Assembly (NCBI GenBank): GCA_018394295.1
Contig: CP074573.1
Coordinates: 2,651,684-2,715,683, forward strand
Length of the DNA stretch: 64,000 nucleotides
Direction: 5' to 3'
Source of the DNA: Mycoplasmatota bacterium
Lineage (GTDB): Bacteria; Bacillota_I; Bacilli_A; Haloplasmatales; Haloplasmataceae
Shown: piece after piece, positions 1 to 27,001 of the stretch
Layout of the letters: each line of letters starts with the position of its first letter
How positions within the stretch are numbered: position 1 is the first letter of the stretch
Notes under the pieces: model-generated
Told to the model about the DNA's origin: nothing
Database searches by the model: none
What the model saw: only the letters and a program-made list of their open reading frames with translations
Made by a program: the position numbers and the translations under genes

Positions 1-68
1 ATTTCTTTATGTTTATCCATTAAATATCTCTCCCTACTTTTTTATTATATAATAGATTATATAAAATA

Positions 69-94
69 AAGACTGACAACTGTATGTCAGTCTT
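69..94 (-). terminator. rho-independent terminator downstream of hcp
   Basis: 9-bp stem hairpin aagactgac...gtcagtctt followed by a T-run on the minus strand, about 200 nt after the hcp stop (289). Confidence 0.45.
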
Positions 95-288
95 TACTAT
101 TGTTTTTTTAGTATAATCAACCAATTATAATATATATTCTTATACCCTAGTAATTACTCTTTATTACATAGTGGTAGATAGTCTCAGATTTTGGACCCTC
201 TTATGCAGTACCACTTATCTATTTAATAATGTATTTAAAAGGTATAATATCATTACTGATTAGACCTTTATACTACATACAAATAAAT

Positions 289-1938
289 CTATCCTAAGAA
301 CATTTTTAAATCTTCATCAACCGTACCTATACCTGCTATTCCAAAATTATCGACTAATACTTTGGCTACATTTGGTGATAAGAATGCAGGTAATGTAGGT
401 CCTAGGTGAATATTTTTTACTCCTAAGTAAAGTAACGCTAGAAGTACAATTACTGCTTTTTGCTCATACCACGCAATATTATATACAATAGGAAGTTCAT
501 TTACATCATTCAATTCAAATATTTCTTTCAATTTTAACGCGATTACAGCTAGAGAATAAGAGTCATTACATTGTCCTGCATCTAGAACTCTAGGAATTCC
601 ACCTATATCACCTAAATCAAGTTTATTATAACGATATTTAGCACATCCTGCCGTTAATATTACCGTATCTTTTGGTAATTTTTCAGCGAACTCTGTATAA
701 TAACTTCTTGATTTCATTCTTCCATCGCAGCCTGCCATCACAAAGAATTTTTTAATCGCACCTGATTTAACTGCTTCAACTACTTTATCCGCTAAGGCAA
801 ATACTTGTGCATGAGCAAAACCACCAACAATTTTACCATTTTCAATTTCTTTAGGAGAAGGTAACTGCTTAGCATGTTTTATAATATCACTAAAGTCTTT
901 TTGTTTTCCATCTACTCTATCTTTAATATACTTAAATCCTGGATAACCTGTAGCTCCTGTAGTATAAACTCTATTCTTATAGCTTTCTCTTGGTGGTACA
1001 ATACAGTTTGTTGTAAATAATATTGGTCCATTAAAGGTTTCAAATTCTTCATTTTGTTTCCACCAAGCATTACCATAATTACCAACAAAATTAGAATATT
1101 GCTTAAAGAATGGATAATAATGAGCAGGTAACATTTCACCATGTGTATAAACATCTACACCTGTACCCTTTGTCTGTTCTAATAACTCTTCTAAGTCTTT
1201 CAAATCATGTCCTGATATTAATATTGCTGGATTATTTCTAACCCCAATATTTACTTCAGTTATTTCAGGGTTTCCATATGTTTTTGTATTAGCTTCATCT
1301 AGCAACGCCATCGTATCTACACCATATTTACCTGTTTCTAAAGTAAGTGCCACTAGATCTTCTCCACTTAAAGTATCATCTAATGTAGCAACTAAGGCTT
1401 TTACGATAAAATTATAGATTGCTTCACTTTCTTTTCCTAGAGCAACTGCATGTTCAGCATAAGCTGCCATTCCTTTAATTCCATAAGTAATTAATTCTCT
1501 TAATGAACGTACATCTTCATTTTCAGTAGCTAATATGCCTACTTCAATAGAATCTGACTTGGCATAAATTTCTGATTCAGTTTCCGCTACAAAGATGGCT
1601 GCATCATGTAATTCTCCTAAAGATATTCCTTTCTCTTTTAATTCTTCTTTTATTTCTTCCCTAAGTGATAATACTTCTTTAATTTTTTCGATAATAGCTA
1701 TTTCATCAAAGTTAGCATTCGTTATCGTCATGAATAATCCATTCAACATAACATGATTCGCTTTAGGAAATCTAATACCATTCTCTAATCCTATTTTTTG
1801 AAGAATAGCCATTCCTTTTAATACATAAATCATTAAATCTTGTAAGTTTGAAACGTCTTCTGTTTTTCCACAGACCCCTTTAATAGTACACCCGGTCCCT
1901 TTTGCCGTTTCTTGGCATTGATAACATAACATACTCAT
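289..1938 (-). CDS. hcp: hybrid cluster protein / hydroxylamine reductase (prismane)
   Basis: 549 aa. N-terminal Cys cluster [18 protein letters not shown] is typical of Hcp. Conserved C-terminal Cys ligands (AGCAKY, MAGCDGR). Length fits the Hcp family. Confidence 0.9.
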
Positions 1939-2094
1939 TTAAATTCCTCCTATATATTTATTTACATTAAGACATATGCTTATATTTAGCAAGCAATTCT
2001 TAATTTTTATAAAAATATTTAAATTATAATTTTCAATTAGATAATATATCTTTCTAAATCAAATTTCAGTATCCTATGGTACAAGAAATGATAT

Positions 2095-2343
2095 TTAATA
2101 ATTATTTCCAGCTGCTTTGACATTATCTGGGTCAAAAGCATGACAAGGTGTTACCCCATAAACCATATTACACTGTGGACACTTATCCTCAAATGTACTC
2201 ATTTCAAAAGTATTTCCACAGTCTACACATGTAATTGAGAAAGCCATCGGCAGATATTGATTTGAAAACCCCATTGCTCTAACTTTATCTACTATTTGTT
2301 TTCCATTCTGAAATTTTCCACTACATCCTTCATGCATATTCAT
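2095..2343 (-). CDS. small Cys-rich zinc-ribbon protein, hcp-cluster associated
   Basis: 82 aa with C7, CxxC(39-42), CxxC(55-58) and C67. Lies 14 bp downstream of the ABC-type ATPase gene on the same strand. Confidence 0.5.
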   Translation of the reverse strand: MNMHEGCSGKFQNGKQIVDKVRAMGFSNQYLPMAFSITCVDCGNTFEMSTFEDKCPQCNMVYGVTPCHAFDPDNVKAAGNNY

Positions 2344-2357
2344 TCACCTCTATTCTT

Positions 2358-3377
2358 TTATTCACTTTTTAATATTTCGCCTTTTCTTAGTTTTGTTCTC
2401 ATCGAGTTATACACTTGATCCATTTTCTCTAATTCTAACAATATGCTTTTTTCTTCATCATCGGTTTCTATCACTTTATAGATTCCACCATTTTTTATGA
2501 CAATCCTTTTATCTGCCATAAGTGCTAAACTCGGATCATGTGTTGCCATTAAGACAATTTTCTCTTCATTTACAAGAAGATTTAATGCTCTTTTTCTATC
2601 AATTCCAGCATTTTCAATTTCATCTATTAAAACAATTGGTGATTTACTTAATATGGCCGTATCTGCAATCATTAAAGCTCTTGATTGACCACCACTTAAA
2701 CCAGTAATAGGTGTATCTAAATTAAACTTTTCACCTGCTAATTCATTGGCTGCTTCGATTATTTTTCTAATCACTTCTTCTTCATTATCAATCATTCTAC
2801 TTTTAGCATGTAATTCTAGAAATTCCTTCACGGTTAAATCCATCACAAAATTCATGTTTTGCGACAATTGCGCGACCAATTTATTACTTGTTGAAAAGCG
2901 AATGCTTTTATCAGGCAAATCTCCGTTAATTAAGATTGTTCTTTCAGTGGGTGTATCTTTATTTGCTGCCCATTCTATATCTGCGAGTAATCTACTTTTT
3001 CCAGAACCTGTAGGACCGACTATGGATATAATCTCACTTTTGTTAATGGTTAATTGATCAATATTCTCTTTATTCCCATATTTATCTTTACCAGAAACAA
3101 TCGTTATTGATTCTACTTTATCTTTATCTAATCCTAAAAACTCAAGCATTTGATTAATATACTCAACTAAATCAGATTTAATCTTTTCTATGTCTATTGC
3201 CCACTCTTCCCTATCTTCTTCTGTAAATTTATTTAAGTAATCTAAGAACGTATATTCTTCATAACCATTTACATCTAATTGATTATTTTCAAAAAATGAT
3301 AATATAAATGGGTATTTCTTCTCTAAATAACTGATTTTTTTTGTTTCTAATTCTTTTATATTAATCATTGTCATCAC
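2358..3377 (-). CDS. orphan ABC-type ATPase (single NBD, no permease partner) with ~100-aa N-terminal extension
   Basis: Walker A GPTGSGKS, ABC signature LSGGQSRAL, Walker B VLIDEIEN, H-loop ATHD. Start overlaps the upstream GTPase gene (translational coupling). No TM genes in the cluster. Confidence 0.7.
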   Translation of the reverse strand: MMTMINIKELETKKISYLEKKYPFILSFFENNQLDVNGYEEYTFLDYLNKFTEEDREEWAIDIEKIKSDLVEYINQMLEFLGLDKDKVESITIVSGKDKYGNKENIDQLTINKSEIISIVGPTGSGKSRLLADIEWAANKDTPTERTILINGDLPDKSIRFSTSNKLVAQLSQNMNFVMDLTVKEFLELHAKSRMIDNEEEVIRKIIEAANELAGEKFNLDTPITGLSGGQSRALMIADTAILSKSPIVLIDEIENAGIDRKRALNLLVNEEKIVLMATHDPSLALMADKRIVIKNGGIYKVIETDDEEKSILLELEKMDQVYNSMRTKLRKGEILKSE

Positions 3378-4071
3378 CGATTTTCATTTTTCTTACATTC
3401 CCCATCTGATATTCTTCACCAATTCTTGTCTCTCCTAAACAGTATGAGCATAAAGCTGATGGCATTGGGAATTTTAATTCCCTTCCTTTTACGGTTTCAA
3501 TACTCGCCTCGATGTCATAAACAAGTGTACTTAGTTCAAAGGCTCCTTGCCCTGTCAGTCCATTTACAAAAATAATTATAGCTTTAGGATTGACTGAATT
3601 TACACGAGATGCAAAAACCTCTCTCTCAGCTTGCGATACAATATCCCCTTTTGTGATTACGATTATATCAGCTGTTTTTAACATGGGTCCTATTTTTTTA
3701 GGTGTATTTATACCACTTAAGTTATCAATTACACAGATTGCTTTAATCCCTTTCATATAAGGAGAGCATCGATTACATAATCCTGCACTTTCAGTGATCA
3801 GTAAATCTAATTTTTCCTTTTTTCCCCATCTTACAACTTCTTCAATATTACTTGCAAAATAGTGGTCTGGACATAATGAACCTGATAATCCTTTTTTTAC
3901 AGGTACTTTTGCTTTTTCATATAGAATATCATCATCTGTATATAAACAATCAAATTTAACTACCCCTACTGATAATCCTCTCTTTTTAATCGCTTCTATC
4001 GTTTTTAATATGACAGAAGTCTTCCCAGATGAAGGAGGACCTGATATCGTTACTAAATTCATCCTAAACAT
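3361..4071 (-). CDS. G3E-family P-loop GTPase metallochaperone (UreG/HypB-like)
   Basis: GPPSSGKTS P-loop, CPDH motif (compare UreG CPH metal site), ESAG switch, ITKGD (NKxD-like). Additional CNRCSP and C-terminal CxxC. Overlaps both neighbouring genes. Confidence 0.6.
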   Translation of the reverse strand: MFRMNLVTISGPPSSGKTSVILKTIEAIKKRGLSVGVVKFDCLYTDDDILYEKAKVPVKKGLSGSLCPDHYFASNIEEVVRWGKKEKLDLLITESAGLCNRCSPYMKGIKAICVIDNLSGINTPKKIGPMLKTADIIVITKGDIVSQAEREVFASRVNSVNPKAIIIFVNGLTGQGAFELSTLVYDIEASIETVKGRELKFPMPSALCSYCLGETRIGEEYQMGNVRKMKIGDDND

Positions 4072-5284
4072 CTCCTTTTACAGCACGATTAAATATAGCT
4101 TCACATTCTTTGATTAAACTTGAAGTATCATGTTCTTTTATATAATCCCAACCAATCCACATATATTTATTTTCTTTCGTGATCATATTATTGACTTTAG
4201 GATTTACACTTGGAAATTTACCATTATGAGATAATATTTCTCCTATTTCTTTTGAAGCAAAAAACTCAACAATTGGTTTCAATTTATCTTTTTTATCTTT
4301 TTTAGTTAACATAAATATCGGACTTATAATAGCCCCATCCTTTGGCCAAACAGCAATCATTGGACCACCTTTTTTAACCATTTTGGTAAAGAAATAAGGC
4401 ATTATTGTAACGACTGGTTTATCAGTTTTTTTGATATGTGATTTCACCATTTCAGATGGATGCATACTCCTTTGTAAACTTTTTCCTAATCTTTTTACCC
4501 CATCTTCTCCATAGGTTTTGTAAATATTCAACAATATTGCATTAAACAAATCAAAATCTCCAATAGGTAAACTAACACTATTTTCAAATTCTTCTTTCAA
4601 AATATCTTCCCAACTAGATGGTATTTTTCTCCCCTTTAATTCTTCTTGATTCACTAAGAAAACAGCTGGGACAACACCAATAATAGAATATTGTTTATTT
4701 GGGTCCTCTAATTTAATATAATCATTATGAAAATCTTCATTATACTGATTAAAACCAGTTAAATCTTCAAACATATCTTCTGATTTATATTTACCAAACA
4801 GTTTTTTATCAAAGAATAAATCAAAACCTGCTGATATAAAGATATCTGGTAAATCATCTTTTGATTGACTTTTTAGAGTATCTTCTAACCAGTCAATCCC
4901 CATCGAAGCAGCTTTTAATTCATAATCAATATGAAAATCATAATTTTTATCAGTAAGCCAATCTTCAAAAGCTTCTGTTAAAGGTACTCTAACTGGACAC
5001 GGCAATATTCCCGCTATTTTCACAGAGTCTTTTTTATTAGATGATTTATTTAACCTAACTTCATTATTTTCTATCCGTTCAACAAGTTGAGCTACAAATG
5101 TATCAACATTTATTTTTTTTAACTTTAAAGCATCTTCTAATGTTATTGATTTACCAATAGCTCTTCTCATATTTTCATCTTTTATCTTATCAAACCCAAC
5201 TGATATTAACAGTTCTAAAGCTTCATCATATTTTTCTGTAATATCATATATTTTATCTTTTATATCAAAATATTTATTTTTCAT
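4064..5284 (-). CDS. fusion protein: N-terminal DUF1858-like helical domain + cytoplasmic periplasmic-binding-protein-like (SBP type II) domain
   Basis: The first ~70 aa resemble DUF1858 (the N-terminal domain of ScdA/RIC-type proteins) but lack Cys. The rest has alternating beta-alpha SBP-like segments (IAGILPCPVRV, VVPAVFLVN, IMPYFF..MIAVWPKDGAI). No signal peptide. Confidence 0.45.
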   Translation of the reverse strand: MKNKYFDIKDKIYDITEKYDEALELLISVGFDKIKDENMRRAIGKSITLEDALKLKKINVDTFVAQLVERIENNEVRLNKSSNKKDSVKIAGILPCPVRVPLTEAFEDWLTDKNYDFHIDYELKAASMGIDWLEDTLKSQSKDDLPDIFISAGFDLFFDKKLFGKYKSEDMFEDLTGFNQYNEDFHNDYIKLEDPNKQYSIIGVVPAVFLVNQEELKGRKIPSSWEDILKEEFENSVSLPIGDFDLFNAILLNIYKTYGEDGVKRLGKSLQRSMHPSEMVKSHIKKTDKPVVTIMPYFFTKMVKKGGPMIAVWPKDGAIISPIFMLTKKDKKDKLKPIVEFFASKEIGEILSHNGKFPSVNPKVNNMITKENKYMWIGWDYIKEHDTSSLIKECEAIFNRAVKGDV

Positions 5285-5349
5285 GTTACTTACATCTCCT
5301 TTTATCCTATTGATGTATTATTAGTCTACCACTAAATACATATGATATC

Positions 5350-5365
5350 GGTATCCTTTGTTACC
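5350..5365 (-). promoter_or_regulatory. putative HcpR half-conserved operator GGTATC-N4-GTTACC upstream of the 4-gene hcp-associated cluster
   Basis: Matches the perfect GTAAC-N4-GTTAC palindrome found upstream of the regulator gene, with 1 mismatch. Lies ~70-85 nt upstream of the start at 5284. Confidence 0.35.
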
Positions 5366-5443
5366 ATTTTTATCGTATTAAATAATAAAAAAACGCATAT
5401 AAATGCATTAAATACACTATATACGTTATTAATTTATTCTATA

Positions 5444-6169
5444 TCATAAACATGCTTTTAATCTTTTTAAATCTAATATTTTAAAATAATTTCTATAAAA
5501 ATCTATAATTCCTTCTTCCTGCATCTTGATTAATTCTCTAGAAAGAGAAGGTCTAGACACCAATAAATACTCAGCTAATTCATTTCTTTTTAAAGGGATA
5601 TCAAAATGAACTTTATTATTCATTCGATATTGTCGAAGTAAATATGTACTAATCTTTTTTCTAATACTTTTTAATGAAAGAATCTCTACTTTTTTATTTA
5701 AAATCAAGGCTTTTTTTGCCACAATTTGAAGCATATTTTCAATCATTATTCTATGCCCATGACAAACCTTAGTACATATTCCAACAATTTTCTGAGGTGG
5801 CAAAAACAAAATAGTACAATCTGTATTAGCAACTACTGTTGCTAACCATACATCACTTGTAAAAGCAGCTACTTCTCCAAATAAATCTCCACTCTTTAAC
5901 CTACTCATTATCACTCTATCACCAGCTAATGAGTCTTTCCCAACAATAACCTCTCCTTCTAAAACGATACCTATTCCATTTAATTCCTCTTTTTCAATCG
6001 TTATTACATCCTTTTTATTGTAGATTTTTATACTTGGTGTTAAACAATTTAATATACGTCTTAGTTCATCCTTCTCTATACCTTTAAATAACTCAATCTT
6101 CATCAATTGATTGATCCATTTTTCATACATCCCCATCAACCTCACTTTATATAAGTTAATTTTAATCAT
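5444..6169 (-). CDS. Crp/Fnr-family transcriptional regulator (HcpR-like by context)
   Basis: N-terminal cNMP-binding-like domain (GDLFGEVAAF) and C-terminal HTH (RNELAEYLLVSRPSLSRELIKMQEEG). Located directly upstream of the hcp locus. Confidence 0.8.
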   Translation of the reverse strand: MIKINLYKVRLMGMYEKWINQLMKIELFKGIEKDELRRILNCLTPSIKIYNKKDVITIEKEELNGIGIVLEGEVIVGKDSLAGDRVIMSRLKSGDLFGEVAAFTSDVWLATVVANTDCTILFLPPQKIVGICTKVCHGHRIMIENMLQIVAKKALILNKKVEILSLKSIRKKISTYLLRQYRMNNKVHFDIPLKRNELAEYLLVSRPSLSRELIKMQEEGIIDFYRNYFKILDLKRLKACL

Positions 6170-6225
6170 ACATATTAAATCTGAATATCTATTATATTAT
6201 TATATAATAATTAATAATATATTTC

Positions 6226-6241
6226 TGTAACATATGTTACC
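6226..6241. promoter_or_regulatory. perfect palindrome TGTAACATATGTTACC (GTAAC-N4-GTTAC), candidate HcpR/Crp-Fnr operator
   Basis: 14-bp perfect inverted repeat ~57 nt upstream of the regulator start codon. Suggests autoregulation. Confidence 0.55.
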
Positions 6242-6262
6242 GATTTTAAAATATAATTTTTA

Positions 6263-6712
6263 TTATACTTTATTGTTTTTGATTCGTTCTTTGCCTTTTT
6301 CAGTAGCAGCAGTTTTTCTTGTCAATTTTTTAATTTTATCAACATGTCTAAACCGCATTGCAGACCAGTCATTATTAATTGATACTTGTGATACTGGCTC
6401 AAATTCAAATGGTGCAAAAACATCCCACGCTTTATTTCTTTTTATATCCGATTTATATTTCTTAGAAGTTCCCTTTGGATAACAGAACCATAAGTATCCA
6501 TCATCTCCTAATGCTTTTATCACTGATTCTGCAATTTGGTAAGCATCTACCAAATTCATAACAAAGATTTGAATGAAATCATACTTCCCATTTATTTCTG
6601 TATGAATTTCAGATTCTATATCTTCTATGACTTCATTATATTCTTCTGGCATATTTACTATAAGAATTGGATTTTGTTCTTTTAAACCTAGTTTTTTCAA
6701 AATTGGATTCAT
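6263..6712 (-). CDS. hypothetical protein (149 aa)
   Basis: Intact ORF with codon usage consistent with neighbours. No recognisable motifs. Confidence 0.4.
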   Translation of the reverse strand: MNPILKKLGLKEQNPILIVNMPEEYNEVIEDIESEIHTEINGKYDFIQIFVMNLVDAYQIAESVIKALGDDGYLWFCYPKGTSKKYKSDIKRNKAWDVFAPFEFEPVSQVSINNDWSAMRFRHVDKIKKLTRKTAATEKGKERIKNNKV

Positions 6713-6768
6713 ATTAATCTCCTTGATTCATATAATATGACCTATCTATTTTTATTTTTAATTACATT

Positions 6769-7914
6769 TTATAAATTATTTTCAGTAATTATTATATTTT
6801 TTAATACATTGATTAATTCTATTTCCATTAAAGCTAAACCCTTATAAGGAAATTCATCTATAACTGATAAAGCATCTTGACAATACTGTAATGGTAATTC
6901 AACTTTTCTATTTATATAATACTCATAATATGCTTTAATACGTAGTCCATTAATATCATTGTCTTTTTGTAGCTTTTCTTCTATTTGTGTATAATATTTC
7001 TTAACTTTTTCAAAGTTATTAGTTATACAACCGATATAGCATATTTCATAGATAATAGTTCGTTGAAGTGGGACAGGTATAATCTTTATATTTTTTTCTA
7101 AAAAATCTATATAATACATCATTTTTTCAATATTATTTTCATCTAAAGCTTTATAATATAATAAGATAACATATCTAATATTCGCTCCAAATAAATACTC
7201 TATGTTATATGAATGTGAGATTTGAATATCTCTTGGACGAATACCAGATGATAGTTGAGTTATAAAGACACTTATATCACCCTTTATCCTCTGTATTGGT
7301 TTATTCAAAATTATATTTATTATACATCTTCCATCATTAGGATTATTCTTAATATATAACGGAATTAGATTAAATAAAGCAAAGAATATTGATAAAAAAC
7401 CTAACATAAGGATAAACACTTCGATAAATTTAGGTATATCATCAAAAATCATTAATAATAATAAAACTATAATTCCTGTAATAAAATTAATAATAATTCC
7501 ACCAGCAGTAAATAAAATATCTTTACCTCTTGATGTATGTCCCTTTGGCGGAATCATAACACAATAACAACCATAGCCTTTTGGTTTAACAATTGTAAAT
7601 CTTATTTTTGAATCTACCATTTTCCATAAAAAGATACTGAATCTATATGTGATAAGTTCAAATCCAAGCATCCTACCAAATAAATAATGACCAAACTCAT
7701 GTATATTAAGAGTAATAAAATATGAAATAAAAAAGTAAATTAAATATAACATAGGATGCTCTTCATAAAAATTACTAACACTATAAACTTTTAACACATA
7801 CAACCATCCAATAAATCCAATAATACATAGTGTCCATTGTAACATCCAATTATTTTTGTTTTTCTTCTTTTTACTATGTTCCATATACCCTCCACTTTTC
7901 CCTAATAAATCCAT
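6769..7914 (-). CDS. membrane protein with intramembrane HExxH (putative M50-like zinc metalloprotease) and C-terminal helical/TPR-like domain
   Basis: HEFGH motif after TM2, a later NPNDG (LDG-like) motif in a TM segment, multiple TM helices. Confidence 0.45.
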   Translation of the reverse strand: MDLLGKSGGYMEHSKKKKNKNNWMLQWTLCIIGFIGWLYVLKVYSVSNFYEEHPMLYLIYFFISYFITLNIHEFGHYLFGRMLGFELITYRFSIFLWKMVDSKIRFTIVKPKGYGCYCVMIPPKGHTSRGKDILFTAGGIIINFITGIIVLLLLMIFDDIPKFIEVFILMLGFLSIFFALFNLIPLYIKNNPNDGRCIINIILNKPIQRIKGDISVFITQLSSGIRPRDIQISHSYNIEYLFGANIRYVILLYYKALDENNIEKMMYYIDFLEKNIKIIPVPLQRTIIYEICYIGCITNNFEKVKKYYTQIEEKLQKDNDINGLRIKAYYEYYINRKVELPLQYCQDALSVIDEFPYKGLALMEIELINVLKNIIITENNL

Positions 7915-7940
7915 ATTTATACGTTATATATATTATATTA

Positions 7941-7975
7941 TATCAAAAAGATACTGCGTTTACAGTAACTTTTAT
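7941..7975. repeat. dispersed 35-bp palindromic repeat, copy 1 (TATCAAAAAGATACTG-N6-CAGTAACTTTT)
   Basis: Member of a 5-copy family sharing AAAAGrTACTG-N6-CAGTAmCTTTT. Sits immediately upstream of the gene starting at 7914. Confidence 0.6.
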
Positions 7976-8048
7976 TATTTATATTTTATATAAGAAGAGC
8001 CTGTCGTCTTTTTAATTTTTTTACAACTCCCCTTCAAAAAGTCAAAAA

Positions 8049-8079
8049 CCACTACTTATGATTTATCATAAATTAGTGG
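8049..8079 (-). terminator. rho-independent terminator after the FtsX-like permease gene
   Basis: Long imperfect palindrome ccactac ttatga..tcataa attagtgg followed by T-rich sequence on the minus strand. Confidence 0.5.
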
Positions 8080-8099
8080 CTATTCTCAGTTTTTAAGTA

Positions 8100-10094
8100 T
8101 CAATCTGAAATAATTTTCTTACACCGTTCATGAGTAAAAAGAATAAAAACAATATATATAATCATAAAAATTATAGAAGAAATGACGGTTGAATAAATAA
8201 AAGAATGAGCATCTACTGTCATCAAACTGTAGGAAGACATAGCGATTGTTCCAACTATACTATGAGAAATTGCGACGATTAACGGAAGTGAAAAATACAT
8301 AAATATCTGTTTGAAAATAGAACTGTGAACATCAGCTTTCTTCACACCAAGCTTATTCATAATTTCATAACACCTTTTATTATCCATTGTTTCTGTCATT
8401 TGCTGTAAGGACAATATAGAGGCTCCAACAATTAATAGAATACTTCCAATGAACAAACCTGTGAAAACATAAGAAGAGGCTTGCTTTAGGTTGTAATCCC
8501 TTTGATCACTTCTCAAAATAACCTGATGACCACCACTATAGCTTGCTATATAATTATATAGACCTTTATCACTGTTGCTTTCAAAGTCACTTTTCAACAT
8601 ATCGGTTCTTAATTCCTTGGTGTTAATAATCAAAGAAATATCATAGTTACCAATCTTTGAATTGATAAAATCTTCGTCTGATACTACTATTGTTACCCCA
8701 CCACCTATAACACCTCTAGAATCGTTAAGGGGCTCCAAATAGATAAGCTGATTCGGATTGAAAAGTTTTTTACTGCTTATCTTAACCTCTCTACAATTAC
8801 CAATAGATTGCATAACAGCCTTGTCTGCATGAAGCAAATATTCTCCTTGATTAATCAATACACTTTTATAACCTGAGATTTCTCGTACCTTATTATAATC
8901 AGATAGCATAATTAAACGTGTTGATATATCCTCAAAAAACGCATATTCATCACCCAGTTTGTAGGTTTTATGAGGATCTAAGAAGTAACTTAGGGTATAG
9001 TCTGTTCGATATAAAGGGAAACTATATTCTTTTTCGATAGTATAACCTTGTTCTTTAATATAATTTGTCACTTTGTCTATTGAAACATCGGGTTGTATTC
9101 CGCTAACTGATATGGAATATGGTGCAGTATATTTTAAATTTTCATCAATCCAAATATGTGCTGAAAAACCTAGATTAAGCATAACAAGTGTTAGGCTCAT
9201 TACAAATGAGATGATACTTAGTAAAATTCCATTTTGTCCTACTTTACTTGTAAGTTGTTTATTTGAAAAGAGATTTATTCCACTATACATTTTCTTTCTA
9301 TTATGACTAATTAAGAATGACATTACTGATGAGCCAAATAAAAAGATTCCAATGTGACCTAATAGTCCAATTCCAAACGCAATTTCTGTTGAGGTATCGG
9401 TGAAATCAATGTTTGGTTTTAACATTAAGATGTAAAAATATATGATTGCCACTATGCTTAAAACAAAACAAATAACAGAATAGTTGATAATTCCCTTTCT
9501 TTTTCTCTTTTTCAATATTGCTCTTTTTGATTTAACAATATTTATCAAATTTGCACGAGATATAATAAAATAGTTAAATATCGAAATGAGTACAAAGATA
9601 ATAAAAAATGTAAACAGTGTATTAATAAATGCAGTTCTTTCAAAAAGAATAGTACTATGTTGTATTTTAAGACCAAGCAATTTTATAATTAGTAAATCAA
9701 AGATTCGTGTTCCAAATATCCCTAAAACACAACCAGAAACAAAGGAAATAACACTTATTATAAGAGTTTCTAAGATCATCATAAGGTGAACCTGAGAATA
9801 TTTTAATCCAAGCATTAAATAAATACCAATCTCACGACTGCGTTTTTTTAAGATAAAATTGTTTGAATAAAGAGCAAGTCCTGTAACAATTAGCGTAATC
9901 GAAAGTGAAAGTTGCGTTAATATTCTTGTCAAATCCTCTACTGAATTTTCAGAAAACTCCTTCATAAAGGGTTGAAACTTAAGTAAATTGAATATATAGC
10001 TAAAAGAGACAGTAAGGGTTAAGGTAATGAAATAAATAGTATAATCATGGAAATTCTTTTTAACATTTTGGTACGATAGTTTAAATATCATCAT
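8100..10094 (-). CDS. ABC transporter permease, FtsX/MacB family with large extracellular domain (BceB-like)
   Basis: 664 aa with ~10 TM segments and a large loop between TM7 and TM8. Start overlaps the ATPase gene stop. Confidence 0.8.
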   Translation of the reverse strand: MMIFKLSYQNVKKNFHDYTIYFITLTLTVSFSYIFNLLKFQPFMKEFSENSVEDLTRILTQLSLSITLIVTGLALYSNNFILKKRSREIGIYLMLGLKYSQVHLMMILETLIISVISFVSGCVLGIFGTRIFDLLIIKLLGLKIQHSTILFERTAFINTLFTFFIIFVLISIFNYFIISRANLINIVKSKRAILKKRKRKGIINYSVICFVLSIVAIIYFYILMLKPNIDFTDTSTEIAFGIGLLGHIGIFLFGSSVMSFLISHNRKKMYSGINLFSNKQLTSKVGQNGILLSIISFVMSLTLVMLNLGFSAHIWIDENLKYTAPYSISVSGIQPDVSIDKVTNYIKEQGYTIEKEYSFPLYRTDYTLSYFLDPHKTYKLGDEYAFFEDISTRLIMLSDYNKVREISGYKSVLINQGEYLLHADKAVMQSIGNCREVKISSKKLFNPNQLIYLEPLNDSRGVIGGGVTIVVSDEDFINSKIGNYDISLIINTKELRTDMLKSDFESNSDKGLYNYIASYSGGHQVILRSDQRDYNLKQASSYVFTGLFIGSILLIVGASILSLQQMTETMDNKRCYEIMNKLGVKKADVHSSIFKQIFMYFSLPLIVAISHSIVGTIAMSSYSLMTVDAHSFIYSTVISSIIFMIIYIVFILFTHERCKKIISD

Positions 10095-14293: not shown

Positions 14294-14504
14294 ATTATCA
14301 CCTCCATATAGTAGTTGGTAGTGTAAAAGTTTTTCTTAAAACCAATACAAAACCTTATATATATATTATTTTTTATTATATAATGAGTTCCCCCCCTGTG
14401 TTTGGGAGGTTGCTCGTTATATTTTTTTAACCCTTTATATACAAAAAGATAGATACACCTGATATAATTTAATCACCACAAAAAAACTATAAGGAGTATC
14501 TATC

Positions 14505-14768
14505 ATGGTTAAAATTATATCAGTTCTTTCAGTATTTTTAAAGTATTTAAACAAACTACTTTATAAATTTATTCTTTTTCTAGATTCACACATTATTTCT
14601 ACACCTAGTTCTAAGTCATCTGGCACTTATTATGAACCTTTTAGGAAGTTCACTGTTGATGGTGAACCTATTATTCAGAAGGTTGAAAAGCTAGATTATC
14701 AAGAATTGCTTAATGTGTATTTTTTAAAGTACAATAAGCATCTCAAACCAGTTACTAGACGAATATAA
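14505..14768 (+). pseudogene. IS6-like transposase, N-terminal segment interrupted by IS21 insertion
   Basis: First 85 aa identical or near-identical to the intact-length copies at 55564 and 31229. The reading frame ends 2 codons after the IS21 junction. Confidence 0.8.
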
Positions 14769-14816
14769 ATGTCAAGATAATAATGTACATTTTTGATCAT
14801 TTAATAATGTACATTT

Positions 14817-15566
14817 TTAATTTTCTTCGATAAAGTAATTTTTAAGTCGATAAGATTTACCTGTAATGTTAACTACATGAGCATGATGAAGAACTCGATC
14901 AAGGATAGCGTTAGCTATTACAGGGTCTTTAAAAATATCATCCCAATTAGAAAAGTTAATGTTGGTTGTAATTATCGTACTTCGTTTTTCATATCGTCTA
15001 TCTATTAGCTGAAAGAACAATTTAGAATCTTCTTTGTCGATAGGTAAATAGCCTAGTTCATCAATAATCAATAATTTGTACTTGGTAAAATGCTTGAGTC
15101 TATCGTTTAAGCGATTTTCTAACTTAGCTTTCTTTAACTGGGCTATCAAATCATGACATTTTATAAAGTAAGTTGATATACGCTTCTTCGCAGCGGATAT
15201 ACCTATTGATGTAGATAAGTGGGTTTTACCAACACCACTCGTTCCCATAAAAACGATGTTCTCGCATTGATGGATGAATCGATGACTCTCAAAATCTAAT
15301 ATTTGTTCTTTGTTTATATTTTCTTGGAAAGAGAAGTCAAAATCCTTCAATTCTTTGTAATGGGGGAATGCCCCTACTTTAACCATAGCTTTGATCATAC
15401 TAGCCTCTTTATAATCAATTTCATATGTTGTTAATTTAATAAGCCCATCAACGAAAGATAGATTATTTTTATTAATAAAGTTAATAGTATCGTCTAAATG
15501 ATTTTTCATTTCTTTTAATTTTAAATATTCTAAATTTGCGATTAATTGCTCGTGTGCTGTTGTCAT
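14817..15566 (-). CDS. istB: IS21-family helper ATPase IstB
   Basis: GTSGVGKTHL Walker A, LLIIDELGYLP Walker B, RYEKRSTIITTN and ILDRVLHH motifs. Confidence 0.85.
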   Translation of the reverse strand: MTTAHEQLIANLEYLKLKEMKNHLDDTINFINKNNLSFVDGLIKLTTYEIDYKEASMIKAMVKVGAFPHYKELKDFDFSFQENINKEQILDFESHRFIHQCENIVFMGTSGVGKTHLSTSIGISAAKKRISTYFIKCHDLIAQLKKAKLENRLNDRLKHFTKYKLLIIDELGYLPIDKEDSKLFFQLIDRRYEKRSTIITTNINFSNWDDIFKDPVIANAILDRVLHHAHVVNITGKSYRLKNYFIEEN

Positions 15567-16866
15567 TATTTATAACGTTCTCCTATCTTATTAAGATTTT
15601 CTTTTGCGAATTTTTGAATATCTTCATCATCAAAAGATAGAGTCATTCTGGCAATCTGTATATAGTGCTCCTCTAAATAATTCAACTTTTTACTACTTAA
15701 CGAGTGTATTGTCACCAAATTTGTGTTAGAATATATGTGAATTTGATTATCATATACCTGCAGTTGAAGTGTACGGTTCATATATTTAGGTGGTACTGAA
15801 TATTGATTACCCTTATAACTAATCATTGATGATGAGTTTACTTTCGCTGTTATGGTTTTAATCAAGTATAGATTTCTTATCGTGTCTCGTGGAGGGGACT
15901 GTAAGAAATCTTTTTCATTTTGTAGGCCAAATAGTGGAATCATATCATAAGCTCTATGTAACCTACTGTTTTCTCTGTTGTTTATTTCTTGTACCTTTTT
16001 CACTAATTGTTCATAATTTAAATCACCACTATATGCTTTTAATTCATCTAAAATTTTCATAGGGGATTCAACCTTTGCTTTTGTATTTGGTCTGCCTGCG
16101 ATACAGGGTTTAACTTCAAATCCATAATCATTAGCGAATTGTTGAAATTTATTATTTACTTTTCCTTTTGAATATTCAGTTCTTGGTACATCCATTACTG
16201 TTTTCATATTATCAGTTAGTATTTCATGAGGTACACCACCAAATGCTTGAAATGCTTCGTCTATGAAGTTAAACAGTATGTCTTGAGATTTAGTTAATGA
16301 TAATCTATAAACTCTAAACCTTGAGTAACTCAGTAATAAAACGAATATATTGATTGTGATGACTTCTCCTGTATCAAGCACGAAATTCATTGATTCTTTC
16401 CAATCTAGCTGTGCTTGTTGACCTTTATCTGTTTCATAACGTATAACTGAAGGTGCTTTGATAGCACTTTTTTCTTTTGATCAAAGTACTCTTGAAATTC
16501 TGGTGTTTTACTTATATATCGCCTAAATGATGATTCAGCACATTTTAGTCCATAATTATCACTAAGATACTGCCAAAGCACTTTTTTATATTCAAAAACT
16601 TTTATTTTATCATTGAGTAAATCTTTAATTAAGTAGTAATAATCATCTACTATACTTGATCGTTTTCTATTTTTAGACTTCTCATAACCATTAATGTACT
16701 TACTTATCGTTCTTCTATCAACATTTAACTCTCTTGCTAATCGACTTTTATTTACCTTTAAGTTTGTTGTTTCCATTAAATTCTTTAATACCTTCAAATC
16801 ATTTAATTTCTGTATTTCTATATTAGTATCTATTTCATAGTTTAGTATCATAAGTTGTCCTCCCAT
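15566..16866 (-). pseudogene. istA: IS21-family transposase IstA with a single frameshift
   Basis: N-terminal HTH part (16405-16866) and DDE catalytic part (15566-16390) lie in different frames. The frameshift maps to an A/T homopolymer run near 16470-16480. Confidence 0.65.
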
Positions 16867-16952
16867 TGATTAACTATGAAATTATACTATATTAACTGTA
16901 CATTTTAAAGTGATCACTTCTGTACATATCTATCTTATCATTTATAGACGAA

Positions 16953-18121
16953 GGCCATCAAAACTTGATTTCAAAGGAAATTGCCCTATTTGTGGTGCTC
17001 CTCATGATTACATCTATGAAAATAATATTAAATCAAAACAGTTACTTTGTAAGGTATGTAGTCATACATTTACCTTGAATAATGATTTTCTTGAAAAGAT
17101 TATTTTAAAATGTCCTCATTGTTCAAAGAACCTTGAAAGAATTAAAGACCGTAATAGTTATATTATTTATAAATGTAGACATAAGAAATGTTCCTTTTAT
17201 TTAGATAAATTAAAGAAATTAACACCAGATCAATTAAAACAATTCAAAAAGAAACCAGGTAAATTTAAACTTCATTATATCTATCGTGCTTTCGATATTA
17301 ACTTTGATTCCCTAGAACGTGACTCTATGTCTAATTTAAATATGAAGGTTGATTTAGCCAATATCAGACATTCTAAGCATACTCTAGGCTTAATCTTAAC
17401 GTATTACGTTAACTACGGTTTGTCGAGTAGGAAAACTGCAGCTATCATGTATGATATTCACCAAGTTAAGATTTCCCATCAAACCGTGATGAATTATGCA
17501 AATAGTGTTTCTACAATGATTCGTCCCTTACTTGAAAATTACCCATATGATTTATCATCTGACCTTTGTGGGGATGAAACATATGTTAGGGTTAAGGGGA
17601 AGAAGCATTATATCTTCTTCTTCTCAGATAAAATTAAAAAGATTATTACTTCTTATCAAGTTTTTAGTAAACGTGATACTTTTTCAGCAGTCGTTTCACT
17701 ATATCAAACATTCAAAAAATACACTGAACTACCTAAGAATTTGAAAGTAGTTGTGGATGGTAATCCTATTTACAACGTTGCATGGTCATACTTTAAAAGC
17801 ATGAACATAAATTTCGATTTATTTCAAGTTATAGGACTCACTAATAACACGAAAACAGACAAGGATTACCGTCCATTTAAACAAGTAACTGAGCGTTTAA
17901 ATAGAACTTTCAAAGACGATTATATCCAAATGAACGGATTTGGTAATATCAAGAGCGCTAATGCTTATATGGTCTTGTTTACAACGTTTTTTAACTTTCT
18001 AAGACCACATAAATCGTTAGGTTATAACCCACCTGTTAAATTAGAAGAGTTTGAGGATTTACCTCATATGCCAAGCAAATGGCTTTCTCTAATAGATATG
18101 AGTTACTCTTATATAAACTAA
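16953..18121 (+). pseudogene. IS6-like transposase, C-terminal segment (resumes after IS21)
   Basis: Continues ...PSKLDFKGNCPICGAP (Zn-finger CxxC x2, CPHC) and the DDE region DETYVRVKGKKHY / VDGNPIY / RPHKSLGYNPP. Confidence 0.8.
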
Positions 18122-21190: not shown

Positions 21191-21485
21191 AAAGTTGTTC
21201 TCCTTACTAAGTTATTAAATTTTATTTCAAGACAACTAGTTGTCTTGAAATAACTTACTATGTCTACTATACTATTTTTAGAGCTCCATGACAACTATTC
21301 TAACACAGAGGGTAAACGCTATACTAAATTTTGTATCCAATGTTTCACTATCTATATCACTTACTATATTCTAAAGATCAAATGTTATTATAGTATTTTC
21401 ATAAGTCATTAAGTGTGTATGATGTGCAATTGGTGCATCATTACTAACAACAGATAATTATAATATATAATGGATTTTATATATT

Positions 21486-22004
21486 TTACAAATTCAGTTT
21501 ATTACACCATGCTTTTACTTCTTTATGTCCATTTAAAATAATAACTTGTTTACCTAACTTTTCTGCTTCATTAAATAGTAATTGACGCTCGATTTTCTTC
21601 TTTGGATATCCAGATAATACATATTTCACAACTTCCATATTATATTCTTCGTAACATCCCTCGGAAAGTTCCGGACGTGCATCATATTTATGTTTAAAAT
21701 ATCTTCTCAGTCCTCTAAATAAGTATATAAATCGATTTATATTTATATATATTATAGTGTCACAATTTTCGAATCTACCGTCTTTCTTTGATGCACTGAA
21801 TTTGTTTCCATCAAATATCCATTTATCTTTTTCTGATAACTCCTTAATTATATCAATCTGTTCTTTCTCTGATCGCTCTTGCCAGTTTTCCTTCCAGGTA
21901 ATACTGTCTCTATGATATACAGAAATATTAAATTTGTTTTCAAGCTTATTTGCTAAGGTAGTTTTCCCAGAACCAGACGAACCAGTTATCCATATCCTTT
22001 GCAT
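21486..22004 (-). CDS. small P-loop NTPase/kinase (AAA_33/topology-modulation-protein-like)
   Basis: ITGSSGSGKTT Walker A. 172 aa. ~80% identical paralog at 26267-26785. Confidence 0.6.
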   Translation of the reverse strand: MQRIWITGSSGSGKTTLANKLENKFNISVYHRDSITWKENWQERSEKEQIDIIKELSEKDKWIFDGNKFSASKKDGRFENCDTIIYININRFIYLFRGLRRYFKHKYDARPELSEGCYEEYNMEVVKYVLSGYPKKKIERQLLFNEAEKLGKQVIILNGHKEVKAWCNKLNL

Positions 22005-22074
22005 TACGACCTCCTACAAATATTGACTGTGATTATAATATCAATTATAATTGACATTACTATTTACTTAATTA

Positions 22075-22108
22075 TATCAAAAAGATACTGAGTTAACAGT
22101 ACCTTTTG
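22075..22108. repeat. dispersed 35-bp palindromic repeat, copy 2
   Basis: TATCAAAAAGATACTGAGTTAACAGTACCTTTTG, between the NTF2-like fragment and the kinase gene. Confidence 0.6.
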
Positions 22109-22193
22109 TTTATTATAATTATATTTAAACAATAAAATAATTTATTATTAGAGGTTTCTGTTTAATTATGGAATCCTATCTAAAAGTTTATAT

Positions 22194-22433
22194 TTATTCA
22201 TCTTGCCATAACATATTTGAAATCTTCCAACCACTTCCATCATTTAATAAATGGATTAAGTTTACACCTCTTTTTATAATTTCTTCATGTTCTTTAGACT
22301 TTTTCGCTTCATACTTACTATAAACATTAGCTATATTCTTATAAGTTTTAATCTCATAGTTTAATCCATATTCATAAAAATTATGCTCTCTAAGGAAATT
22401 TCTAACCTTTAAAATATATTGATTAACATCCAT
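22194..22433 (-). pseudogene. N-terminally truncated NTF2/SnoaL-like protein (paralog of 27002-27409)
   Basis: 79 aa, ~90% identical to the C-terminal 79 aa of the 135-aa paralog. The 5' part is deleted. Confidence 0.55.
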
Positions 22434-22640
22434 TTGTAATAGTTTACCTATATGGATCCATCGAATTCTGCAAAATAATTAATTCTGTTCCTAAAGAATC
22501 TGCTATTTTCTTATTTATCTTTACAAACCATTTACCAAATTCACTTCCAACCATTACCACAGCATATTATATTTTTTATCAGCTGATTTTTTCATATTTT
22601 TTCAAGCACTAATATGAGAAAATAAGATCACTTAAATAAC
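22434..22640 (-). pseudogene. remnants of alpha/beta-hydrolase gene and downstream sequence (deleted copy of 27560-28860)
   Basis: ~110 bp nearly identical to part of the hydrolase gene at 27570-27680, followed by ~80 bp matching 28760-28850. Internal deletions. Confidence 0.5.
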
Positions 22641-26785: not shown

Positions 26786-26865
26786 TTACGATCTCCTACA
26801 TATATTATTTTTTTGACTGTGATTTGATACTAATAATAAATGAATTTACTATTTACTTAATTATA

Positions 26866-26900
26866 TCTAAAAAGATACTGAATTAACAGTACCTTTTGTT
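26866..26900. repeat. dispersed 35-bp palindromic repeat, copy 3
   Basis: TATCTAAAAAGATACTGAATTAACAGTACCTTTTG. Confidence 0.6.
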
Positions 26901-27001
26901 ATTAATATTTCTTTTTAAACAATATAATAATTAGTAATAAAAAGATTAATAATTTCAGTTTAATGGAAACCTCGCTATCTTTACAATATCTAAATAAATT
27001 T

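What the first reader, a model, noticed from the sequence alone, without database searches (positions are those of the whole stretch)
6226..6241. Perfect GTAAC-N4-GTTAC palindrome upstream of the Crp/Fnr regulator, with a one-mismatch copy upstream of the hcp-associated cluster
TGTAACATATGTTACC (6226-6241) is a perfect 14-bp inverted repeat ~57 nt upstream of the regulator start codon. GGTATCCTTTGTTACC (5350-5365) upstream of the 4-gene cluster shares the GTTAC half and the 4-nt spacer.

This geometry (5-bp half-sites, N4 spacer) fits Crp/Fnr-type dimer binding. It defines a small local regulon: the regulator, the novel cluster and probably hcp. No comparably good site lies directly in front of hcp. 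A degenerate AAGAC-ATAT-GCTTA at ~1969-1982 is the best candidate there.
Basis: partly seen in the sequence, partly recalled or inferred. Interest (0 to 1): 0.5.

Follow-up and report, generated by a model that had tools for sequence, protein, structure and literature searches.

The report
HcpR binding sites at hcp locus
The palindrome is a textbook binding site for HcpR, a nitric-oxide-stress regulator of anaerobic bacteria whose motif was published in 2005; three such sites here switch on the regulator gene, a four-gene helper operon and the NO-detoxifying enzyme gene hcp, so the finding is correct but ordinary.

Summary
GTAACATATGTTAC (6227-6240) is the only perfect GTAAC-N4-GTTAC in 64 kb (0.04 expected), and a 1-mismatch copy lies at 5351-5364. 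The motif is not new: it is the published consensus of the HcpR2 branch of Crp/Fnr regulators (Rodionov 2005). The adjacent regulator carries that branch's signature recognition helix (R-P-S-L-S-R).

Its own candidate (1969-1982) scores about -31 bits and is not a site.

A matrix built only from 90 sites in other genomes ranks these three sites top in the window (28.0, 27.9, 20.9 bits; next 12.9). Each lies exactly 22 nt upstream of a -10 hexamer, as do 81 of 90 sites elsewhere. That places the sites at -41.5, the class II activator geometry.

In six genomes where the regulator's helix is R-S instead of R-P, the same operon carries a different palindrome (TGTTG-N6-CAACA) at the same position.

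The regulator's start codon is 6130, not 6169.

The modestly new points are that the conserved DUF1858-SBP/GTPase/ABC-ATPase/Zn-ribbon operon is a widespread HcpR2 target, and that this lineage autoregulates hcpR.

Verdict: a new instance of a known system.

The parts
6227..6240 (-). HcpR2 box 1 (GTAACATATGTTAC), perfect palindrome in the promoter of hcpR; predicted centre at -41.5
   Evidence: Unique perfect match in the window. PWM 28.0 bits, the top hit in 64 kb. The identical 14-mer is found upstream of hcpR in relatives L081, L083 and L084 and in C. acetobutylicum CAC0884/0885 (Rodionov Table S1).
6199..6204 (-). -10 hexamer TATAAT of the hcpR promoter, 22 nt downstream of box 1; predicted TSS near 6192
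   Evidence: The 22-nt spacing is the one found in 81 of 90 sites in other genomes.
5444..6130 (-). hcpR: Crp/Fnr-family regulator of the HcpR2 type, 228 aa (start at 6130, not 6169)
   Evidence: Pfam cNMP_binding plus HTH_Crp_2. 100% identical to a 228-aa NCBI protein, and the listed homologues are mostly 228-229 aa. R-P...R at CRP positions 180/181/185.
5351..5364 (-). HcpR2 box 2 (gene strand GTAACAAAGGATAC) in the promoter of the sbp-gtp-abc-znr operon
   Evidence: PWM 27.9 bits. The same GTAAC-N4-GATAC form lies upstream of sbp in L002, L003, L007, L009, L012, L021, L024, L081, L083 and others.
5323..5328 (-). -10 hexamer TAGACT preceded by TGG (extended -10), 22 nt downstream of box 2; predicted TSS near 5316
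   Evidence: L083 has an identical 'gtgg TAGACT'.
4064..5284 (-). sbp: DUF1858 plus SBP_bac_6 protein with no signal peptide; first gene of the regulated operon
   Evidence: Pfam. 2543 homologues. A site with at most 1 mismatch lies upstream in 54 of 80 species loci.
3361..4071 (-). gtp: CobW/HypB/UreG-family GTPase (metallochaperone-like)
   Evidence: Pfam and NCBIfam. PDB hits to UreG and HypB. Conserved directly after sbp in 76 of 80 loci.
2358..3377 (-). abc: soluble ABC-type ATPase with no partner permease in the cluster
   Evidence: Pfam ABC_tran. Conserved order across loci.
2095..2343 (-). znr: 82-aa Cys-rich (CxxC...CxxC) protein with no Pfam family
   Evidence: Present after abc in 44 of 80 loci.
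2069..2082 (-).
   Evidence: 2 mismatches. PWM 20.9 bits, third best in the window. The same GTACC...GATAC form lies upstream of hcp in Marinisporobacter L024.
2041..2046 (-). -10 hexamer TATTAT of the hcp promoter, 22 nt downstream of box 3; predicted TSS near 2034
   Evidence: The generic promoter scan picked the same hexamer.
289..1938 (-). hcp: hybrid cluster protein (hydroxylamine/NO reductase)
   Evidence: Pfam Prismane 611.8 bits; NCBIfam NF003658 861.7 bits.

Best explanation
The palindrome is an operator for the adjacent Crp/Fnr regulator, which belongs to the HcpR2 branch (Rodionov 2005). Three such operators lie in the window, upstream of hcpR, of the sbp-gtp-abc-znr operon and of hcp. 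Each occupies -48 to -35 of a promoter that has a -10 hexamer but only a remnant -35 (n-G-A).

The proposed mechanism is that an HcpR dimer, once activated by nitrosative stress (NO or nitrite), binds the box centred at -41.5 and recruits RNA polymerase as a class II activator. That turns on hcp for NO detoxification, the four-gene accessory operon, and hcpR itself as a positive feedback.

Shown here: the sites, their statistical significance, the fixed promoter geometry, conservation across species, and co-variation between regulator and motif. Inferred from homologues: activation rather than repression, NO as the signal, and the nature of the sensor cofactor.
For: 1. The motif is identical to the published HcpR2 consensus GTAACnnnnGTTAC. 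The same 14-mer is listed upstream of C. acetobutylicum hcpR/frdX.
2. The regulator has Arg-Pro...Arg at CRP positions 180/181/185, the signature Rodionov correlated with this motif.
3. A PWM built from 90 sites in other genomes ranks the three window sites first (28.0, 27.9 and 20.9 bits; next locus 12.9). Simulated 64-kb windows reach at most 18.4.
4. Among 80 species loci, a site with at most 1 mismatch lies within 300 nt upstream of sbp in 54 of 80 and of hcp in 25 of 35. Internal genes have essentially none, and the background is about 0.02 per 300 bp. All 91 sites of at least 20 bits in 1.18 Mb are in front of these genes.
5. A TAnnnT hexamer lies exactly 22 nt after the site in 81 of 90 independent sites and in all three window sites. 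The chance rate per site is 0.04-0.085.
6. Natural specificity swap: six loci whose regulator has R-S...A or R-S...S carry TGTTG-N6-CAACA upstream of the same operon, with the same n-G-A and 22-nt geometry. This is Rodionov's profile 5.
7. Reverse test: a metagenome scan with the promoter architecture alone gave 24 of 118 hits upstream of hcp. It also recovered FrdX-type ferredoxins, DUF1858, DUF438-hemerythrin, NIR_SIR and sbp.
8. Experiments on homologues: hcpR is required for hcp expression in B. thetaiotaomicron (where EMSA and heme binding are also shown), P. gingivalis and C. difficile.
Against: There is no experimental data for this organism or this regulator. The transcription start sites are predicted, not mapped, and the region is so AT-rich that alternative -10 hexamers exist. 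For example, the generic scan paired GTTACA with TATTAT 5 nt upstream of my -10 at hcpR.

The hcp site has two mismatches to the consensus.

Autoregulation is lineage-restricted: only about 4 of 32 hcpR genes in the wider set have a site upstream. In C. difficile the hcpR transcript rose in the hcpR::Tn mutant, so the sign of autoregulation is uncertain.

The P. gingivalis heme ligand Met68 is not conserved here, so the sensing chemistry may differ.
Confidence: 0.88

Rival explanations
1. The sites are HcpR operators, but HcpR acts there as a repressor. At least at its own promoter this would be negative autoregulation by occluding the -35 region.
For: The box overlaps the -35 position. The generic scan can read the proximal half-site GTTACA as a -35 hexamer with a TATTAT -10. 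In C. difficile the hcpR transcript was higher in the hcpR::Tn mutant.
Against: The spacing to the -10 hexamer is fixed to the nucleotide in 81 of 90 sites. That is expected for stereospecific RNAP contact by an activator and is not needed for a repressor. The -35 is degenerate. Loss of hcpR abolishes or lowers hcp expression in three species. The hcpR promoter has the same geometry as the hcp and sbp promoters.
Confidence: 0.07
2. The boxes are bound by a different Crp/Fnr paralogue encoded elsewhere in the genome that has the same R-P-S-x-x-R helix, rather than by the adjacent regulator.
For: Other Crp/Fnr proteins share the RPSLSRE helix, for example Listeria Lmo0753. Some loci contain a second, distant paralogue with R-P (L022, L033). 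Only 64 kb of the genome could be examined.
Against: The regulator gene is adjacent to and co-oriented with its targets in many species. The motif upstream of the same operon switches exactly when the adjacent regulator's helix switches. No other Crp/Fnr gene lies between hcp and the upstream edge of the locus (ORFs of window 1-10000).
Confidence: 0.04
3. The palindrome is a chance inverted repeat or an RNA hairpin or terminator for the upstream 149-aa gene, with no regulatory protein involved.
For: It lies 23 nt downstream of the stop codon of the upstream ORF (6263). As RNA it can form a 5-bp hairpin.
Against: Only 0.04 perfect matches are expected per window. The hairpin has just 5 pairs and no U tract, and no terminator is predicted there. 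Across species the half-site sequence itself is invariant while the 4-nt spacer varies, which is the pattern of a protein-binding site rather than of a structure. The same box recurs at two other promoters in the window.
Confidence: 0.01

Closest known systems
HcpR2 regulon of Clostridia, Thermotogales, Bacteroides, Fusobacterium and Treponema (Rodionov et al. 2005, PLoS Comput Biol 1:e55; Table S1 profiles 3, 6, 7, 8)
   Same: Same consensus GTAAC-N4-GTTAC. Same Crp/Fnr branch with Pro at CRP position 181. Same core target hcp and same co-localisation of hcpR with hcp. Sites upstream of hcpR itself and a GTAAC-N4-GaTAC variant are already listed there.
   Different: The sbp-gtp-abc-znr operon is not in that table. 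frdX, the commonest partner there, is absent from this locus. The fixed -41.5 geometry and the n-G-A remnant -35 were not found in the passages and supplementary table of the paper that I read.
Bacteroides thetaiotaomicron and Porphyromonas gingivalis HcpR (experimentally studied; PDB 9DAY, 5V30, 6NP6)
   Same: These are NO/nitrite-responsive Crp/Fnr activators of hcp. B. theta HcpR binds hcp promoter DNA in EMSA and is modelled to contact DNA through Pro187/Ser188/Arg191, equivalent to P-S-x-x-R here. 9DAY is the second-best PDB hit (E 2.7e-15).
   Different: P. gingivalis has Gln at position 181 and the motif TGTCGC-N4-GCGACA. Its heme ligand Met68 aligns with a non-Met residue (Lys by my reading of the alignment). 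The clostridial proteins instead conserve C29 and C119-x3-C123-x2-H126. B. theta uses an additional RNA (SnoA), and no Rfam family matched anywhere in this window.
HcpR of C. thermocellum type (Rodionov profile 5, TGTTG-N6-CAACA, Ser at 181)
   Same: Same operon (sbp-gtp-abc-znr) and same promoter geometry in six Lachnospiraceae loci. The regulators share the Cys/His pattern.
   Different: The recognition helix is R-S...A or R-S...S and the half-site is different. The regulator gene is divergent rather than co-oriented.
E. coli FNR / CRP class II promoters (site centred at -41.5)
   Same: A dimeric Crp/Fnr protein on a 5-N4-5 palindrome that replaces the -35 element, 22 nt before the -10 hexamer.
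   Different: The half-site is GTAAC instead of TTGAT, through E181 changing to P. There is no N-terminal FNR Cys cluster, and the signal is nitrosative stress rather than O2.

Membership tests
HcpR2 operator (Rodionov 2005) | 14-bp palindrome matching GTAAC-N4-GTTAC | tested here: met
   6227-6240 is a perfect match, 5351-5364 has 1 mismatch and 2069-2082 has 2 mismatches. PWM scores are 28.0, 27.9 and 20.9 bits.
HcpR2 operator (Rodionov 2005) | Located upstream of hcp and/or genes co-localised with hcpR | tested here: met
   The sites lie in the three intergenic regions preceding hcpR, sbp and hcp. The same placement is seen in 54 of 80 sbp and 25 of 35 hcp upstream regions of other species.
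HcpR2 regulator (Crp/Fnr branch) | cNMP-binding-type sensor domain plus C-terminal Crp-type HTH | tested here: met
   PF00027 at 3.1e-16 and PF13545 at 1.5e-14.
HcpR2 regulator (Crp/Fnr branch) | Arg at CRP position 180 and Pro (not Glu) at position 181 of the recognition helix | tested here: met
   MAFFT alignment with E. coli CRP gives R/P/R at positions 180/181/185 (VSRPSLSRE).
HcpR2 regulator (Crp/Fnr branch) | Absence of the FNR-type N-terminal Cys cluster motif | tested here: met
   There is no CX2CX5C near the N-terminus. The cysteines are at positions 29, 105, 119, 123 and 227.
HcpR2 regulator (Crp/Fnr branch) | Regulator binds the box and activates transcription in response to NO/nitrite | not testable with these tools
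   Only homologue data are available. EMSA, footprinting and expression experiments are needed.
Class II Crp/Fnr-dependent promoter | Site centred near -41.5, that is, the site ends 22 nt before the -10 hexamer | tested here: met
   All three window sites and 81 of 90 sites in other genomes have TAnnnT at offset 22. TSS positions are inferred, not mapped.
Heme-type HcpR sensor (P. gingivalis) | Met68 and His149 axial heme ligands | tested here: not met
   Reading the phmmer alignment to 9DAY, Met68 aligns to a non-Met residue (Lys). The His region is gapped and ambiguous. The family's invariant residues are instead C29, C119, C123 and H126.

The most novel reading that the evidence does not exclude
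The HcpR2-controlled sbp-gtp-abc-znr operon is mis-annotated as an ABC transporter. It has no signal peptide, no permease, a DUF1858 domain, a HypB/UreG-type GTPase and a Zn-ribbon protein. It could be a cytoplasmic, NO-inducible metallocentre assembly or repair machine, serving the Hcp hybrid cluster or NO-damaged Fe-S proteins. A related possibility is that clostridial HcpR senses NO through a Cys3-His-ligated cofactor (C29, C119, C123, H126) rather than the Met/His heme site of P. gingivalis HcpR.
Probability: 0.3. Interest if true: 0.6.

Novelty: new member of a known kind. Interest (0 to 1): 0.25.

Why it matters
The finding gives a confident, mechanistically coherent annotation of a nitrosative-stress module in a poorly characterised anaerobe: three HcpR-dependent promoters with predicted start sites. 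It corrects the regulator's start codon and identifies the real hcp operator.

More generally, it shows that a widely conserved operon of unknown function, seen in at least 228 genome stretches, is a core HcpR target. This holds across two regulator specificity classes, which ties the operon firmly to NO stress and makes it a good candidate for functional study. The motif and the regulator family themselves have been known since 2005.

Tried and rejected
2. Other 1-mismatch hits in the window: 30150 scores 1.3 bits and 58275 scores 12.9 bits. Both are within the range of simulated windows, so neither is accepted as a site.
3. RNA hairpin or terminator reading: only a 5-bp stem with no U tract, and no terminator predicted.
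4. Rfam scan of the whole window found no family, so there is no riboswitch or sRNA in the hcp leader and no SnoA-like element.
5. PDB sequence search for the SBP protein gave only a DUF1858 structural-genomics hit (2fi0) and weak PotD-type hits, which are uninformative about the ligand.
6. A literature search for DUF1858 found no paper on this operon.
7. NCBIfam has no HcpR-specific model. The best hit, FtrB, is far below its cutoff.
The 1.18-Mb locus set and the metagenome architecture scan served as substitutes.
9. Reverse-orientation promoter at box 1 (+ strand): TATACT (read by eye) lies at offset 23 rather than 22, no + strand gene lies downstream, and the relatives have no TAnnnT hexamer at offset 22 on that strand. 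Not pursued.

Full report
**Observation**

The window is AT-rich, and every gene from 289 to about 10,000 lies on the minus strand. TGTAACATATGTTACC is at 6226-6241 and GGTATCCTTTGTTACC at 5350-5365, as reported. GTAAC-N4-GTTAC occurs once without mismatch in 64 kb, where shuffles give 0.04. With up to 1 mismatch there are four hits against 1.02 expected.

The gene map, all on the minus strand, is as follows:

| Gene | Coordinates | Identity |
|---|---|---|
| regulator | 5444-6169 (longest ORF) | Crp/Fnr family (cNMP_binding + HTH_Crp_2) |
| sbp | 4064-5284 | DUF1858 + SBP_bac_6 protein |
| gtp | 3361-4071 | CobW/HypB/UreG-type GTPase |
| abc | 2358-3377 | ABC-type ATPase |
| znr | 2095-2343 | 82-aa Cys-rich protein |
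| hcp | 289-1938 | hybrid cluster protein (Prismane, 612 bits) |

**Corrections to the observation**

First, the 2-mismatch list contains GTATCCTATGGTAC at 2069-2082. This lies in the znr-hcp intergenic region, so hcp does have its own site.

Second, the regulator is 100% identical to a 228-aa NCBI protein, and its listed homologues are mostly 228-229 aa. The ATG at 6130 has a GAGG 9 nt upstream, while the ATG at 6169 has none. The gene therefore starts at 6130, and the palindrome centre is 103.5 nt upstream of it.

**What the motif is**

GTAACnnnnGTTAC is, letter for letter, the consensus that Rodionov et al. (2005, PMC1274295) derived for the 'HcpR2' branch of Crp/Fnr regulators. That branch is found next to hcp in Clostridium, Bacteroides, Thermotogales, Fusobacterium and Treponema.

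Their Table S1 lists the very same 14-mer, GTAACATATGTTAC, between C. acetobutylicum hcpR and frdX. It also lists sites upstream of hcpR in C. botulinum and C. tetani, and a GTAAC-N4-GaTAC variant.

They correlated the motif with Pro replacing Glu at CRP position 181. An alignment with E. coli CRP shows the window regulator has R180, P181 and R185 (VSRPSLSRE). Its best solved relatives are Crp/Fnr regulators. These include full-length P. gingivalis HcpR (9DAY, E 2.7e-15), which has R-Q at those positions and a different motif, as Rodionov noted.

**Comparative test anchored on genes**

Using an alignment of 22 SBP homologues, I fetched 80 loci from distinct species. The order sbp-gtp-abc(-znr)(-hcp) is conserved. 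An hcpR-like gene is adjacent to sbp in 27 of the 80 loci, usually co-oriented just upstream.

| Gene | Loci with a site of at most 1 mismatch within 300 nt upstream |
|---|---|
| sbp | 54 of 80 (34 perfect) |
| hcp | 25 of 35 |
| gtp | 0 of 76 |
| abc | 0 of 74 |
| znr | 2 of 44 |
| hcpR | 4 of 32 |

The overall density is about 0.024 per 300 bp, and that figure includes the true sites.

The window's imperfect forms are recurrent. GTAAC-N4-GATAC precedes sbp in many close relatives. GTATC-N4-GATAC does so in Proteiniclasticum. GTACC-N4-GATAC precedes hcp in Marinisporobacter. The real consensus is therefore closer to GTAWC-N4-GWTAC, with the A/T choice at the position next to the outer C.

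**Position weight matrix**

I built a 22-nt PWM from 90 non-identical sites, none of them from the window. It ranks 6227-6240 (28.0 bits), 5351-5364 (27.9) and 2069-2082 (20.9) as the three best loci in the window, with the next at 12.9. Thirty Markov-simulated windows reached a mean maximum of 11.4 and an absolute maximum of 18.4.

In the 1.18 Mb of related loci, all 91 sites of at least 20 bits lie in front of sbp, hcp, znr or hcpR. The seven that looked unexplained were six of these same palindromes scored on the other strand, plus one sbp gene with a longer N-terminus.

**Promoter geometry**

Reading the gene strand, each of the three window sites is followed by exactly 22 nt and then a -10-like hexamer:
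- TATAAT for hcpR
- TAGACT, preceded by TGG (an extended -10), for sbp
- TATTAT for hcp

TAnnnT occurs at a given position with frequency 0.04 in the window and 0.085 in these intergenic regions. Three out of three by chance is therefore below about 6e-4.

Across the 90 independent sites, TAnnnT sits at offset 22 in 81 cases, and no other offset exceeds 21. The two bases at site+2 and site+3 are G and A in 89% of sites, matching the GA of a TTGACA -35 element with a 17-nt spacer.

The box therefore spans -48 to -35 and is centred at -41.5, which is the class II Crp/Fnr activator arrangement. Predicted start sites are about 6192, 5316 and 2034. These are inferences, because no transcript data exist.

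**Regulator and motif co-variation**

All regulators in the loci that carry R-P...R accompany GTAAC or GTATC-type boxes. Six Lachnospiraceae-type loci (L056, L065, L067, L069, L070, L076) have a divergent regulator with R-S...A or R-S...S and no GTAAC box.

Their hcpR-sbp intergenic regions all contain TGTTG-N6-CAACA (core GTTGT/GTTGG-N4). In the copy counted base by base (L056) the core is followed by A-G-A and, 22 nt after the core, by TAAACT; the other five sequences show the same arrangement by eye.

That motif is Rodionov's profile 5 for C. thermocellum, whose HcpR has Ser at position 181. The same operon, with the same promoter skeleton, changes its half-site exactly when the neighbouring regulator's recognition helix changes. 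This is the strongest non-experimental evidence that the adjacent regulator is the protein that binds the box.

**Autoregulatory site**

In the wider set, few hcpR genes have their own box. In the closest relatives, however, the exact 14-mer is conserved upstream of hcpR, each time with TGA plus a -10 hexamer at offset 22:
- L083, regulator 89% identical
- L081, 80% identical
- L084, Caldisalinibacter, 74% identical

L002 (75%) has GTAACATATGATAC, and C. vincentii (L082) has only a weak site. Autoregulation is thus a conserved feature of this sub-lineage. Because the geometry equals that of the activated promoters, positive feedback is the more likely sign. The rise of the hcpR transcript in a C. 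difficile hcpR::Tn mutant keeps autorepression open as a minor rival.

**Reverse, unbiased test**

I scanned metagenome contigs with the promoter architecture alone: GTAAC-N4-GTTAC-N-GA-N19-TAnnnT. Of 118 evaluable hits, the downstream genes were as follows:

| Downstream gene | Hits |
|---|---|
| hcp within 300 nt | 21 |
| hcp slightly farther | 3 |
| sbp | 2 |
| znr | 1 |
| FrdX-type 4Fe-4S protein | 8 |
| Pyr_redox_2 + rhodanese flavoprotein | 8 |
| GrcA-like glycyl-radical protein | 7 |
| TolC-like OEP (marine samples) | 6 |
| another Pyr_redox_2 family | 3 |
| stand-alone DUF1858 | 2 |
| NIR_SIR | 2 |
| DUF438-hemerythrin-PAS | 2 |

For a gene that occurs about once per genome, 24 of 118 is an enrichment of a few hundred-fold at least.

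**Mechanism and signal**

Activation by nitrosative stress is taken from homologues.
- P. gingivalis HcpR senses nanomolar NO through heme and needs heme to bind the hcp promoter.
- B. thetaiotaomicron HcpR binds heme and shifts hcp promoter DNA. It is required for hcp transcription and is modelled to contact DNA via Pro187/Ser188/Arg191.
- C. difficile hcpR::Tn is eightfold more NO-sensitive and has lower hcp and frdX expression.

The sensor chemistry here is open. P. gingivalis Met68 is not conserved. The 120 closest homologues have invariant C29, C119, C123 and H126, and this pattern persists in regulators down to 33% identity, including the R-S type. It is missing in the Proteiniclasticum type.

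**Rivals**

- A chance palindrome is excluded by the statistics and the conservation.
- An RNA hairpin or terminator is excluded: the stem has 5 bp with no U tract, no terminator is predicted, and it is the sequence rather than the pairing that is conserved.
- A different paralogue as the binding protein is made unlikely by the co-variation.
- Repression rather than activation is unlikely given the fixed stereospecific spacing, the degenerate -35 and the homologue genetics.

**Novelty and score**

The motif, the regulator branch, the hcp target and even sites upstream of hcpR were published in 2005 and are used in RegPrecise-based analyses. This locus is a new, clean instance.

The parts that go beyond what I could find in the literature are these:
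- The conserved sbp-gtp-abc-znr operon is a core HcpR target under two specificity classes. It is not in Rodionov's Table S1, and no paper in the searchable library links it to HcpR. I could not check RegPrecise itself.
- The invariant -41.5 architecture with its n-G-A remnant -35.
- The Cys/His pattern in the sensor domain.

These are useful but incremental. Interest is 0.25.

Noticed in passing
window 2095-5284 (minus strand); loci L001-L080: The 'ABC transporter' cluster has no permease, and its SBP-like protein has an N-terminal DUF1858 domain in place of a signal peptide. It is followed by a HypB/UreG-type GTPase, a soluble ABC ATPase and a Zn-ribbon protein, often directly upstream of hcp. 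It looks like a cytoplasmic metallocentre assembly or repair system rather than a transporter. It is conserved in at least 228 genome stretches.
   Followed up: partly
window 5444-6130 (regulator residues C29, C119, C123, H126): These three Cys and one His are invariant in the 120 closest homologues. They are kept in regulators down to 33% identity, both R-P and R-S types, but are absent in the Proteiniclasticum-type regulators. The P. gingivalis heme ligand Met68 is not conserved. This may be a distinct cofactor site, either Fe-S or Cys/His heme.
   Followed up: partly
loci L056, L065, L067, L069, L070, L076 (hcpR<>sbp intergenic): Lachnospiraceae-type loci use TGTTG-N6-CAACA instead of GTAAC-N4-GTTAC in front of the same operon, with identical n-G-A plus 22 nt plus TAnnnT geometry. 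Their regulators have Ser at CRP position 181.
   Followed up: yes
window 14488-18121 and 55428-56708: Two 96-98% identical copies of an IS element encoding an IS240/IS6-type DDE transposase with a Zn-ribbon. One copy lies next to an IS21-type istA/istB pair (14817-16390). A second repeat pair lies at 21456-22440 and 26237-27248 (83-96% identical) and was not examined.
   Followed up: partly
whole window (source genome): NCBI labels the source genome 'Mycoplasmatota bacterium' (3.2-Mb contig). Yet the closest homologues of the regulator and the SBP protein (75-89% identity) all come from Clostridia or from unnamed metagenome contigs. The taxonomic label may be wrong, or the locus may have been acquired horizontally.
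   Followed up: no
metagenome loci L118, L123, L125, L143, L148, L180, L201 and L093, L107, L121, L164, L171, L178: The architecture-only scan repeatedly hit promoters of small GrcA-like glycyl-radical proteins (7 hits) and of TolC-like outer-membrane proteins in marine samples (6 hits). The first may be an unrecognised HcpR2 regulon member. The second may reflect a different regulator with a similar box.
   Followed up: partly
window 6263-6712 (minus strand): A 149-aa ORF with no Pfam or NCBIfam family lies immediately upstream of the hcpR promoter. It is 85% identical to a 153-aa ORF at the same position in L083. In L081 a different 127-aa ORF sits between the HcpR box and hcpR.
   Followed up: partly
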